From assembly GCF_057098645.1 (NCBI RefSeq), contig NZ_CM169472.1: 64,000 bases of DNA. One strand, written 5' to 3'. The first letter of the stretch is position 1. Each line of letters begins with the position of its first letter. Position numbers: made by a program. Positions 1 to 3,000 of this stretch are shown here, in pieces.

Positions 1-3000
1 TAATCCGCCTCCTGATTGTGTTCGGATGCCGGACGGTAGAACTGAGGTTATCGGAGATCAGCGAGTGGGATTTTACCGAAATGCTCTGGACCGTGCCGAA
101 AGAACACAGCAAAACGAAGGTGGCAATATTCCGGCCCATACCGGAAGCAATACTGCCGTTCGTCACGCAGCTGGTGGAGCAGAACAGGCACACGGGTTTA
201 TTGCTGGGGGAAGTGAAACAGGAAACAAGCGTGTCGCAGTACGGCAGATTAGCGCATAGGAGGCTAAATCACCCTCACTGGTCACTACATGACATCCGGC
301 GCACCTTTACAACGATGCTGAACGATTTAGGCGTGGATCCTCACGTCGTGGAGCAGCTTACAGGCCACCAGATGCCAGGAATGCAGCGAGTTTATAATCA
401 TTCCCGTTATCTGGATGCTAAACGCAATGCGCTGGATATGTGGACGGAGCGGTTAGGGATACTGGCGGGAACACATGAAAACGTAACCACGCTACCAGTA
501 GCCAGAAGAAAATAATTTTTTTCGTGTTTTTTCAGCATGCGCATACTGGATATGCGAACAGATACAACGTGCAACAATGAGCAACAATGTGGAACAACCA
601 CGAACAAGAGGCGAAAAAGCGTACGGATTTATAAGTAGCTGATTTTTAATGCGTTACTGGTTTTTTATACACTAGCGAATCACTCTTTAAAGAGCGAGAA
701 AAAAGGCATGAAACAATATTTTATGCCTTTGTATTAACATGAATTTAAAAGATTTTATTCTTACTGTTTCATTTTCTGTAAATCATACATCCTCAGTATT
801 TGCCATTCATCACTCTAGCGGGAACAATACGACACAATAAGACACCTGATGACTCTTTAAGAAACGAAAGGGGGCAATAGTGTTAAGCACTGATCGGTTT
901 ATACGTGAAAAAGAATGCGAAAAACTAACCGGCCTTAGCCGTACGTGTCGCTACCGCCTGGAAAAGGCCGGACAATTCCCATCACGTCGTAAACTTGGCG
1001 GTCGTTCCGTTGGCTGGTCTTTATCCGAGGTTCTGGCCTGGAAGGATAGCTGCAAGGCAGTTCATTAATCACGCTGGCGGCACGCAGCCGCCACACATCA
1101 ATCATCTGAACACAGAGCTATAACCATGAAGATTGAATATACGCCAGAACGTAGGCGGGGATTCGTTCGCCCTGGTGAAACTGAAAAACAACAAAATTGG
1201 GGTTTTTCAGGCATAACAAAAAGCGCCCAGTTACCTGAGCGCCTTTGTGAACGATTAACCTGCTGCACAAAAAATAAATATGAGCATTGGAATTATATCA
1301 ACTGTGTGAAGAAGCGCCACAATTGCCGGATTACAGGCAAAAAAAATGCGACCTATGATGGTCGCAAAAATATGATATACATGTTGATTACACTATGCAT
1401 CGACAACGATGCCACATTTTTGGCTGGTTGGCAAATCTGTCATCAGGGCGGACAACAACGCCACGATCTCATCTTTCTTGGGCAATTTTTAAGAAAATCC
1501 TCAAGGGCAAATCTTTTTGGCCTTGCTTCCTGTTCATGGTCAGGCATTTCATCCATTTCTCTTAATTTTTTTTCTACCTGTCTTTCAAGTATGGATAATG
1601 CGATTTCCCGTAATTCTTCGTTGTTCATTGTCTACTCCTGTAAAGAAATGCGCCGTAGTTCCTCACACCACGGCGCTGATAGTGATTATTCTGATTCTTT
1701 GGCCTTCCGGCGCTGTTCATATTTTAATTTGCGTCCACAGGCATCTAAGACCCATGCGGAAAAATTAGCACTAGGATTAGTTAATTTTTCTTGTTCAACG
1801 CTGGCATCAATCCCATCTATAAGCTCATGTGGGAATCGAATATTTTTCTTTGCTGATTTGTTGTTTTTGTTACCGCTAGACATTGATGCACCTCACTTAA
1901 ATGGACTTTATGGGCGCACACAATACAGTAAAAAAAATGAGATGTTAAGTATTGACATGTGCGCACACATGATTTTAATCTGTGCGCACAGTTTGAGTTT
2001 TGTTACTCAAATTAAGCAACGCCCCGCAGTGCTCGCAACACATGCAGGGCGTCTAACCACCAACGATAGCAACAGTATCGAGGCAGCTATGAGAAATCAT
2101 ACCACACACCCGCAAGGGCGGGACTCGCACAACCTGAATAAATACATCTGGCGTTTTATCGCCCTGAGCACGGCACAACCGCGCGTGATTACCATTGAGG
2201 CCACCAGCGAACAGGAAGCACGCCAGCAATCTCCGGCTGGCTGCGTGATGGTATTCGCTGCCCGTATTCGTCAGGAGGTGTGCCATGTGCAATAACATCC
2301 GTCCGGACGCAGCCGCCGAAGCCATCATAACGCTAATGCACGCGCTGATTGATATTTCTGTTATCGCAGACATGGCGCATAAGCACGCCACCAGTGAAAC
2401 AGAATATGCCGGGGCTTTCGTTCCTCATTCGCTGGCGGTTATGCAACTTAGTGCGGATATGGCGCTGAATGAGGCCAAAGCCATCCTGATTGCTGATTGT
2501 GAAAATGGGGGGGGGTTATGCGTGATGATCGTTTTAATTCCCTGAAACAGGAATTTTCCGGCGTTCCTGATGATGCGGCTGATGCGCTTTCGTCAATATC
2601 TGAAATTATGCGGGTGGCTTTTTTCTTTCTTTGCACTGATGAGCACAGGGATACAGGGCTAAATATTCTTGATATTGCCGCTAACTATGCTGATTTCGTG
2701 ACAGAAGTTGTTTTAAGAAAAACGACGGACGGGGATTAATATGCGTGATATTTACCTTGAAACAATAGACCGCGCATTTCTTGCACTTTCTCACAGTGAA
2801 AACATGCTGGAAATATTGCGCATATGGCTTGACACGCTTGGAGATAATGAACGCGACAAACAAAAATCAAGAATTGCCACGGCATTAATAACGCTACTTG
2901 AGCCTGTAATAATGGAACTGCAAAAAATAGATCTATTGCACGACAGATATAAAGAACAGCACACCGGAGAATAAAAATAATGAAACTTAAATATTCTGGC

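What the first reader, a model, noticed from the sequence alone, without database searches (positions are those of the whole stretch)
551..610. Second, inverted copy of the phased repeat motif between int and alpA
Four or more AACAA units at 10-bp spacing lie here; 591-607 is the reverse complement of 5871-5893 with one mismatch. The position between the integrase stop and alpA suggests the same factor controls the excision/regulatory module.
Basis: seen in the sequence. Interest (0 to 1): 0.45.

Follow-up and report, generated by a model that had tools for sequence, protein, structure and literature searches.

The report
Probable AlpA operator repeats in satellite
The phased AACAA repeats between int and alpA are real, and they are one of at least four copies of a conserved protein-binding array in a capsid-forming phage satellite; the arrays most likely bind the satellite's own small excisionase-like master regulator AlpA, whose DNA sites have not been described in the papers I could search.

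Summary
Five ACAA-core units sit at exact 10-bp spacing at 564-607. Bases 583-607 are the reverse complement of 5867-5891, with 1 mismatch in 25 nt.

The window's first ~13.4 kb is an EcCIEDL933-like capsid-forming PICI inserted in tqsA. The same array also occurs at the following places:
- at the putative alpA promoter (823-847, degenerate);
- upstream of the capsid operon (5867-5892);
- about 115 bp inside attR (13331-13356);
- in relatives, upstream of int in attL, which lies off the window.

Core bases are conserved and spacers vary across 51 distinct relatives, and 10-bp indels keep the phase. In both att arms, and only there, each array abuts a 12-bp tandem pair (GGTGTAGTCA x2). That pair matches the geometry of the arm repeats annotated in phage P4, so it is the likelier integrase arm site.

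The arrays closely resemble the mapped 10-bp-phased GTTCG sites of TorI, the excisionase of prophage KplE1. The AlpA model has an excisionase fold.

Best reading: these are AlpA-binding arrays that serve both excision and transcription control, namely alpA autoregulation and the capsid operon. No binding data exist. I rate this a new member of a known kind, of moderate interest.

The parts
564..607 (+). Array A, the finding: five 10-bp phased units, tACAAc / AACAAt / AACAAt / GAACAAc / GAACAAg, 273-316 bp upstream of the alpA start codon.
   Evidence: Present at -296 to -349 from alpA in 68 related loci. Column entropy is 0.16 bit in the ACAA core against 0.88 in the spacers.
823..847 (+). Array A', degenerate: GAACAAT / GACACAAT / GACACC at 10-bp spacing. 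Its first unit supplies the -10 (AACAAT) of the conserved putative alpA promoter, TTGCCA(800-805)-17-AACAAT(823-828).
   Evidence: It is 16/20 identical to units 2-3 of array C by my own comparison. TTTGCCA is invariant and the -10 is [AC]ACAAT in all 51 variants. The promoter and the array assignment are inferred.
880..1068 (+). alpA: 62 aa, Phage_AlpA family, excisionase-type winged helix. It is the proposed binder of the arrays.
   Evidence: Pfam PF05930 at E 5e-17. AF2 model with pLDDT 87. Foldseek top hits are excisionases: 8C3T (TM 0.83), RdfS, Pukovnik Xis and TorI.
18..515 (+). 3' part of the tyrosine integrase gene; its start and attL lie left of the window.
   Evidence: PF00589. The full-length homologue in L001 also has the PF13356 arm-DNA-binding domain.
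5826..5843 (+). Intrinsic terminator after perC, which insulates the packaging module.
   Evidence: The hairpin is conserved in cf-PICIs that carry different upstream genes.
5867..5892 (-). Array B: three units, TTGTTCg / TTGTTCc / TTGTTCa on the + strand. It is inverted relative to A and lies about 215 bp upstream of the capsid ATG (6108).
   Evidence: The block TTTTGTAAATTATTTGTTCGTGGTTGTTCCACGTTGTTC is nearly invariant in 24 distinct cf-PICI sequences, including ones whose capsid protein is only 63-74% identical.
5912..5939 (+). Candidate promoter of the capsid operon: TTTACC-16-TATTCT (TTTACA-16-TATGTT in divergent relatives). It would place array B about 20-45 bp upstream of the -35.
   Evidence: Read from the alignment and the positions. 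Inferred; no transcription start is known. An alternative is TTGTTC(5887)-16-TATTTT.
13331..13356 (-). Array C in the attR arm: TTGTGTc / TTGTTCc / TTGTTTc, plus a degenerate fourth unit. It lies about 115-140 bp inside the element from the att core.
   Evidence: Present in 21 related loci, always with the tandem pair next to it.
13374..13395 (+). GGTGTAGTCAct-GGTGTAGTCA: a 12-bp tandem pair and the probable integrase arm-type sites.
   Evidence: These are the only exact copies in the window. The same pair sits 25 bp upstream of the int start in attL of relatives. The geometry matches the 'attP arm sequence repeat' features annotated in P4.
13470..13478 (.). ATAACAGCA: the inferred att core at the right junction with the tqsA 5' fragment.
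   Evidence: It is the only stretch shared by the attL and attR junctions of L001, and it occurs once in the element. Inferred.

Best explanation
The repeats are operator arrays for AlpA, the satellite's 62-aa excisionase-type winged-helix protein. AlpA monomers would bind head-to-tail, one per helical turn, to (G)AACAA / TTGTT(C) units and form short cooperative filaments that bend the DNA.

In the two att arms, the array next to the integrase arm sites lets AlpA act as the recombination directionality factor for excision. The stand-alone arrays let the same protein act on transcription. Array A, with the degenerate array over the alpA -10, would give the published autoregulation of alpA. Array B, just after a terminator and just upstream of a weak promoter, would switch on the capsid and packaging operon of the capsid-forming satellite.

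Shown here: the arrays, their phasing, their conservation, their placement, and the fold of AlpA. Inferred: that AlpA is the binder, the promoters, and the sign of regulation at each site.
For: 1. Real, constrained sites. There are three strong arrays in 64 kb against 0.1 expected. In 51 distinct relatives the ACAA core is conserved (0.16 bit) and the spacers vary (0.88 bit). Unit gain or loss comes in 10-bp steps.

2. One motif at five functional places. Across about 70 loci the counts are A 68, B 27, attR 21 and attL 18. EcCIEDL933, the experimentally studied prototype, has all four classes.

3. A second, different repeat accounts for integrase. A GTGTAGTYA 12-bp tandem pair follows every attL and attR array and no A or B array. 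P4, CP4-57 and L080 have 12-bp tandem pairs of other sequence at the same place before int. The integrase has a PF13356 arm-binding domain.

4. Precedent. TorI, the excisionase of KplE1, binds five cooperative sites in attL, and three of them are aGTTCG / gGTTCG / aGATCG at 10-bp spacing next to the arm sites and the int promoter (PMC2951348, PMC3509656; sequence read). Relatives L075 and L078 carry TTGTTCG or GTTCG units.

5. AlpA has the right fold. The best structural matches are excisionases and BldC.

6. Published genetics fit. AlpA is required for excision and induction, activates its own promoter and downstream genes, and its overexpression drives EcCIEDL933 (PMC6092414, PMC11773190, bioRxiv 10.1101/2022.09.08.507074 and 10.1101/2025.02.11.637232).

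7. Natural swaps. Where the integrase arm domain diverges (28-56% identity) the 12-bp pair changes: GTGTGGTCA, GTGTATCAC, TGGTCCAAA. AlpA stays about 64-69% identical in those elements, and the neighbouring phased (T)TGTT(C/T) units stay.
Against: - There is no binding, footprint or ChIP evidence for any protein.
- int and alpA are adjacent and mostly co-inherited, so the covariation argument rests on a few lineages (L080, L152 group, L157).
- Array A lies about 190-235 bp upstream of the putative alpA -35, which is far for a direct activator. It is also inverted relative to the other arrays.
- An array over the -10 predicts repression, whereas only positive autoregulation is published.
- In EcCICFT073, AlpA did not change int expression (PMC6092414), so the attL array is not an int activator there.
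- Excisionase sites on both att arms are unusual.
- Classical PICIs with the same AlpA have no array before their capsid-size genes.
- More distant AlpA relatives (CP4-57, L002, L003) show no clear arrays.
Confidence: 0.66

Rival explanations
1. The arrays are integrase arm-type sites, read by the N-terminal arm-binding domain of the P4-family integrase. The copies outside the att arms would let Int act as a regulator of alpA and the capsid operon.
For: The integrase has a PF13356 arm-binding domain. Arrays flank the core on both arms at about +/-100 bp. From general knowledge, lambda P'1-P'3 are also phased tandem repeats. IntS of KplE1 represses its own promoter through arm sites (PMC2951348).
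Against: A better arm-site candidate exists. The 12-bp tandem pairs are found only in the att arms, and their geometry equals the annotated P4 arm repeats. Arrays A and B lie 1.4 and 6.8 kb from the core. In L080, L152 and L157 the 12-bp pair changes with Int while the phased TGTT units do not. No regulatory role of Int on PICI late genes is reported.
Confidence: 0.12
2. The arrays bind some other protein. Candidates are the still-unidentified helper-phage inducer of alpA, another satellite protein (the YlcI/DUF3950 product or PerC), or a host response regulator of the OmpR/PhoB type such as TorR, whose tor box is CTGTTCATAT.
For: Helper phages induce alpA through an unknown factor (PMC6092414). 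OmpR-family regulators bind 10-bp phased direct repeats (general knowledge). The tor box shares TGTTCA with several units (PMC9239176).
Against: Units match the tor box at only 6/10 by my count, and a 7/10 box is already not bound alone (PMC9239176). PerC is absent from L073 and L074, which keep the arrays. Placement beside integrase arm sites in both arms, and the near-identity with TorI-type sites, point to the recombination directionality factor. A phage inducer would not be expected in att arms.
Confidence: 0.12
3. The arrays are replication iterons, or merely intrinsically curved DNA, with no sequence-specific regulator.
For: The repeats are phased and direct. PICI origins are made of iterons (general knowledge).
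Against: The arrays persist with three unrelated replicases: the RepA helicase here, a primase in L075 and L078, and DUF927 in EDL933. A separate iteron set, GTGGGGAG at 4675-4887, abuts repA. AACAA is not an A-tract, and selection acts on the core bases rather than on composition.
Confidence: 0.03

Closest known systems
TorI binding sites in attL of prophage KplE1 (CPS-53) of E. coli K-12
   Same: TorI is a small excisionase-type winged-helix protein. Its sites I3-5 are direct repeats with a GTTCG-type core at 10-bp spacing. They lie between the att core and the integrase arm sites, directly upstream of int. There is a second block of sites nearer the core. The protein is also a transcription regulator, since it represses intS (PMC2951348).
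   Different: TorI and this AlpA are only about 29% identical over 42 aa, and TorI does not reach the Phage_AlpA Pfam threshold. TorI sites are described only in attL. Here arrays also lie in attR, upstream of alpA, and upstream of a capsid operon. TorI represses, whereas AlpA is published as an activator.
Dual-function excisionase regulators P2 Cox, 186 Apl and P4 Vis (from general knowledge; not re-examined here except for the P4 sequence)
   Same: One small protein binds arrays of helically phased direct repeats both at attP, for excision, and at promoters, for the developmental switch. Vis is the P4 homologue of AlpA (PMC6092414).
   Different: Cox and Apl mainly repress the lysogenic promoter. 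Here the targets would be the regulator's own promoter and a structural-gene operon of a satellite. I found no AACAA-type array in the P4 regions I read, the attP arms and the region upstream of vis.
Lambda Xis sites X1-X1.5-X2 (general knowledge) and BldC direct-repeat binding (PDB 6AMA, a hit)
   Same: Head-to-tail cooperative filaments of a winged-helix or MerR-like domain on adjacent direct repeats, abutting an integrase arm site in lambda.
   Different: The Xis sites lie on one arm only and have no role at late promoters. BldC is not a mobile-element protein.
P4 'attP arm sequence repeats' (GGGGGCAnnnnn x2), for the companion motif
   Same: 12-bp tandem pairs on both sides of the core in the same orientation, one pair just upstream of the int start. 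GGTGTAGTCAct x2 has the same layout here.
   Different: The sequence is different, and integrase binding to the pair has not been shown for this element.
Pseudomonas aeruginosa AlpA and its AlpA-binding element (PMC7969949, PMC9371919)
   Same: A small winged-helix protein named AlpA that acts positively on lysis or late-type genes, with terminators downstream of the target promoter.
   Different: Its site is a single GGGACGN5GGTA element between -35 and -10, not a phased array. It acts as an antiterminator. No sequence similarity to it was detected among PDB chains.

Membership tests
Binding-site array of an excisionase / recombination directionality factor (Xis-TorI-AlpA type) | The element encodes a small winged-helix excisionase-type protein. 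| tested here: met
   alpA at 880-1068 hits PF05930 at E 5e-17. The model's best structural matches are excisionases 8C3T, 8DGL, 4J2N and 1Z4H.
Binding-site array of an excisionase / recombination directionality factor (Xis-TorI-AlpA type) | Several direct-repeat sites, head-to-tail, about one helical turn apart. | tested here: met
   Five units at exactly 10 bp at 564-607, and 3-4 units at the other sites. Phase is kept through indels.
Binding-site array of an excisionase / recombination directionality factor (Xis-TorI-AlpA type) | Sites lie in an att arm next to integrase arm-type sites. | tested here: inconclusive
   Met for array C in the window and for array L in relatives; all 39 such arrays abut the 12-bp pair. 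Not met for the array of the finding (A) or for B, which stand alone and would be regulatory copies.
Binding-site array of an excisionase / recombination directionality factor (Xis-TorI-AlpA type) | The protein binds the sites and is needed for excision. | not testable with these tools
   Genetics in related PICIs show AlpA is needed and sufficient for excision (PMC6092414, PMC10803314). Binding has not been tested anywhere I could find.
Integrase arm-type sites | The integrase has an arm-binding domain, and the sites lie on both arms within about 150 bp of the core. | tested here: not met
   The domain is present. However, array A is about 1.4 kb and array B about 6.8 kb from the core. The att-restricted 12-bp pairs fit this definition better.
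Replication-origin iterons | Adjacent to the initiator gene and co-varying with it. | tested here: not met
   The same arrays occur with RepA, primase and DUF927 replicases. Other iterons lie at 4675-4887.
Capsid-forming PICI (host element) | int-alpA-replicase plus its own HK97-type capsid, protease, portal, connectors, HNH, TerS and TerL, with no tail genes. | tested here: met
   Annotation of the 94%-identical L001 and of EDL933. The int-alpA region is 99.6% identical to that of EDL933.
Antiterminator loading site (P. aeruginosa AlpA / Q type) | A single site embedded between -35 and -10, with a terminator downstream that is read through. | tested here: inconclusive
   A hairpin plus U8 lies just before the capsid ATG, but it is not conserved in divergent cf-PICIs. 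Array B lies upstream of the candidate -35 or overlaps it, not between the hexamers.
Intrinsically curved DNA (phased A-tracts) | Runs of at least 4 A/T in helical phase, with selection on composition only. | tested here: not met
   The units are AACAA or GAACAA with a conserved C. Conservation is base-specific.

The most novel reading that the evidence does not exclude
AlpA is a single protein that builds short filaments on five arrays and so physically couples excision to late-gene expression. In capsid-forming PICIs, array B is the device by which a phage-derived capsid and packaging module was placed under the satellite's excisionase. AlpA may act there as a terminator-bypassing factor: a terminator lies just upstream of the array, and a hairpin-U8 lies in the leader.
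Probability: 0.15. Interest if true: 0.6.

Novelty: new member of a known kind. Interest (0 to 1): 0.45.

Why it matters
AlpA is the master switch of Gram-negative phage-inducible islands, including the capsid-forming ones that move between species. Papers still debate whether it is a transcription factor, an excisionase or both, and none of the papers I could search describes its DNA sites.

A defined, conserved operator is present at both att arms, at alpA and at the capsid operon. It gives a concrete, testable map of the AlpA regulon and explains how one 62-aa protein could do both jobs. It also gives handles for engineering or silencing these satellites, through unit mutations and phase-breaking insertions.

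Tried and rejected
- A broad AlpA alignment was too diverse for pattern search. A narrower one mostly re-found the same loci but added 12 useful ones.
- CP4-57 (the original AlpA) shows no clear phased array, only a 12-bp tandem pair before intA.
- The P4 'ori type 2' 10-bp repeats upstream of vis have an unrelated sequence.
- My PWM scan was built with B and C units one base out of register. It still separates the three arrays (21.8-23.4) from the shuffle maximum (16.4), but I do not rely on it.
- The TorR tor-box idea was rejected because the match is only 6/10.
- The iteron and curvature ideas were rejected (see rival explanations).
- No promoter could be assigned right after array A from consensus scans.
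- Literature searches found no described AlpA binding site.

Full report
**What is at the coordinates.** Between the integrase stop (515) and alpA (880-1068) the sequence reads GATACAACGT GCAACAATGA GCAACAATGT GGAACAACCA CGAACAAGAG (561-610). Exact AACAA occurs at 573, 583, 593 and 603, and TACAA at 563. That makes five ACAA cores at exactly 10-bp spacing. 583-607 pairs with 5867-5891 (25 nt, one mismatch), and 589-607 is an exact 19-nt reverse complement of 5867-5885.

**Chance.** Arrays of at least three ACAA cores at 10+/-1 bp occur three times in the 64-kb window, all in the first 13.4 kb. Dinucleotide shuffles give a mean of 0.1. A two-unit pattern with one mismatch gives 8 hits against 1.9 expected, and all 8 fall in four places: 572-607, 822-837, 5867-5892 and 13331-13356.

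**Context.** The first ~13.4 kb of the window is a capsid-forming phage-inducible chromosomal island (cf-PICI) inserted in tqsA. Its genes, in order, are:
- the int 3' end and alpA (PF05930);
- leftward ylcI-type genes;
- a RepA-type helicase followed by GTGGGGAG iterons;
- ssb and perC, then a terminator;
- an HK97-type capsid, protease, portal, connectors, HNH, TerS and TerL.

The tqsA 5' fragment and mdtJI follow the element. The closest complete E. coli copy is 94% identical (L001). The int-alpA region is 99.6% identical to that of E. coli O157:H7 EDL933, whose island EcCIEDL933 is the published prototype of the family (bioRxiv 10.1101/2022.09.08.507074).

**The motif is a family of arrays.**
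- A lies at 564-607 on the + strand.
- A' lies at 823-847 (GGAACAATAC GACACAATAA GACACC). Its first unit doubles as the -10 of a conserved TTGCCA-17-[AC]ACAAT promoter-like element.
- B lies at 5867-5892 on the - strand. It comes right after the perC terminator and about 215 bp before the capsid ATG.
- C lies at 13331-13356 on the - strand, about 115 bp inside attR.
- L is a fifth array, seen in relatives that extend leftwards, 57-90 bp upstream of the int start in attL.

Across about 70 related loci from IMG/VR and E. coli genomes the arrays sit at fixed positions. The counts are A 68, B 27 (the cf-PICI type), C 21 and L 18. EcCIEDL933 itself has L, A, B and C.

**Constraint.** In 51 distinct int-alpA intergenic sequences, the ACAA columns have a mean entropy of 0.16 bit. 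The 5-6 nt spacers have 0.88, and the flanks 0.45-0.59. One relative has gained a unit through a 10-bp insertion, and a divergent group has six units, always in phase. Array B with its left neighbour (TTTTGTAAATTATTTGTTCGTGGTTGTTCCACGTTGTTC) is almost invariant in 24 distinct cf-PICI sequences. This holds even though the gene upstream differs and the capsid protein falls to 63-74% identity. This pattern points to base-specific recognition by a protein that binds one face of the helix.

**Which protein?** In both att arms each array is followed 10-17 bp later by a second, different repeat: GGTGTAGTCA twice at 12-bp spacing (window 13374-13395; L001 8238-8260 and 23084-23106). The two arm modules are homologous, each with four units plus the pair. 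Every one of the 39 attL and attR arrays has this pair, and none of the 95 A and B arrays has it.

Phage P4 belongs to the same integrase family. Its annotated 'attP arm sequence repeats' are 12-bp tandem pairs (GGGGGCAnnnnn x2) on both sides of the core, one pair just before int. CP4-57 has TAGGCCCAnnnn x2 before intA. The full-length integrase here has the PF13356 arm-binding domain. The 12-bp pairs are therefore the natural integrase arm sites, which leaves the 10-bp arrays for another protein.

In lineages whose integrase arm domain has diverged, the pair changes: GTGTGGTCA in the L152 group, GTGTATCAC x3 in L157, and TGGTCCAAA in L080, where Int N-terminal identity is 28%. AlpA stays about 64-69% identical in these lineages, and the adjacent phased (T)TGTT(C/T) units persist. 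The arrays also persist with three unrelated replicases, which excludes iterons.

**Precedent.** TorI, the excisionase of prophage KplE1, binds five cooperative sites in attL. They form two blocks, one near the core and one (I3-5) beside the arm sites and int promoter, and the cores GTTCG, GATCG and GTCCG were mutated in the study (PMC2951348, PMC3509656). Reading the K-12 sequence, I3-5 is cAGTTCGtcatGGTTCGcttcAGATCG, exactly 10-bp phased. The units here are TTGTTCg/c/a, and relatives L075 and L078 have TTGTTCG or GTTCG. The attL arm of relatives also shows a second phased TGTTT block next to the core, plus an IHF-like sequence between the blocks.

The AlphaFold model of AlpA (pLDDT 87) has the strand-helix-helix-wing-helix layout. 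It best matches the GIsul2 excisionase (8C3T, TM 0.83), then RdfS, Pukovnik Xis, TorI and BldC.

**Fit with published biology.**
[quoted passage not shown] When overexpressed it drives excision and replication (PMC6092414, PMC11773190).
- In PICMIs it is sufficient for excision and was proposed to be an excisionase (PMC10803314).
- EcCIEDL933 needs alpA and is boosted by its overexpression (bioRxiv 10.1101/2022.09.08.507074; 10.1101/2025.02.11.637232).

None of these papers describes a binding site. Arrays at both att arms, at alpA and at the capsid operon are what a dual excisionase-regulator would need.

**Proposed mechanism (inferred).** AlpA binds the units head-to-tail, one per turn. At attL and attR it bends the arms and helps Int on the neighbouring arm sites, which favours excision. 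At A and A' it feeds back on its own promoter. At B, placed after a terminator and 20-45 bp upstream of a weak conserved promoter candidate (TTTACC-16-TATTCT), it starts transcription of the capsid and packaging operon.

**Weak points.**
- A is far from the putative alpA promoter and is inverted relative to B, C and L.
- A' over the -10 predicts repression, which has not been reported.
- AlpA did not affect int expression in EcCICFT073.
- The covariation evidence rests on few lineages.
- No protein-DNA data exist.

**Rivals.** Integrase arm sites: about 0.12. Another factor, such as the helper inducer, another island protein, or a host OmpR-type regulator like TorR: about 0.12; TorR's tor box CTGTTCATAT shares TGTTCA with the units but matches only 6/10 (PMC9239176). 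Iterons or curvature: about 0.03.

**Verdict.** The feature is a previously undescribed but unsurprising operator array of a known type, in a known and currently topical satellite family. I rate it a new member of a known kind, with interest 0.45.

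Noticed in passing
window 4675-4887: Direct repeats built on GTGGGGAG (18-45 nt copies at 83-85 bp and 168 bp spacing) lie immediately after the RepA helicase stop. 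They are probably the island's replication origin iterons.
   Followed up: partly
window 702-730 (- strand): A hairpin is followed, on the - strand, by U6 (-9.3 kcal/mol, z -2.25), with a compensatory change in relatives. It looks like a terminator for leftward transcripts from the ylcI-side genes (1443-1883, - strand). Such transcripts would run antisense through alpA.
   Followed up: partly
window 774-783 and 5854-5863: A shared TTYTGTAAAT lies 16 bp upstream of the putative alpA -35 and directly abuts array B. Both copies are invariant in relatives. There are 3 copies in 64 kb against 0.9 expected, so statistical support is weak. It could be a second shared site, for example for the helper-phage inducer.
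   Followed up: partly
window 5968-6017 and 6070-6107: The capsid-operon leader holds an 18-bp-arm hairpin (-31.6 kcal/mol, z -2.8) and a hairpin plus U8 ending at the capsid ATG (-14.1 kcal/mol, z -3.2). Divergent cf-PICIs keep a long hairpin of different sequence but not the U8 one. This may be attenuation or processing, and it leaves the capsid ATG without an obvious ribosome-binding site.
   Followed up: partly
L001 8123-8185 (attL arm, outside the window): A second block of 10-bp phased TGTTT units lies next to the att core, followed by an IHF-like TATCAACAGATTT and then array L. This is the same two-block layout as the TorI sites in KplE1.
   Followed up: partly
L157 470-505; L152 544-567; L080 7474-7497; L084 693-716; L082 3942-3965: Across P4-family integrases, a 12-bp tandem repeat (two or three copies) sits directly upstream of the int start, with a lineage-specific sequence. 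It could be used to predict arm sites and integrase specificity groups.
   Followed up: partly
L025, L047, L050 at about -9225 from alpA: An extra attR-type three-unit array lies about 9.2 kb upstream of alpA in three IMG/VR contigs. This suggests tandem islands or a neighbouring related element.
   Followed up: no
window 5547-5819: The island carries a PerC-family activator gene (PF06069, E 2e-43), the family that includes regulators of the LEE pathogenicity island. It is cargo that could affect host virulence regulation.
   Followed up: no
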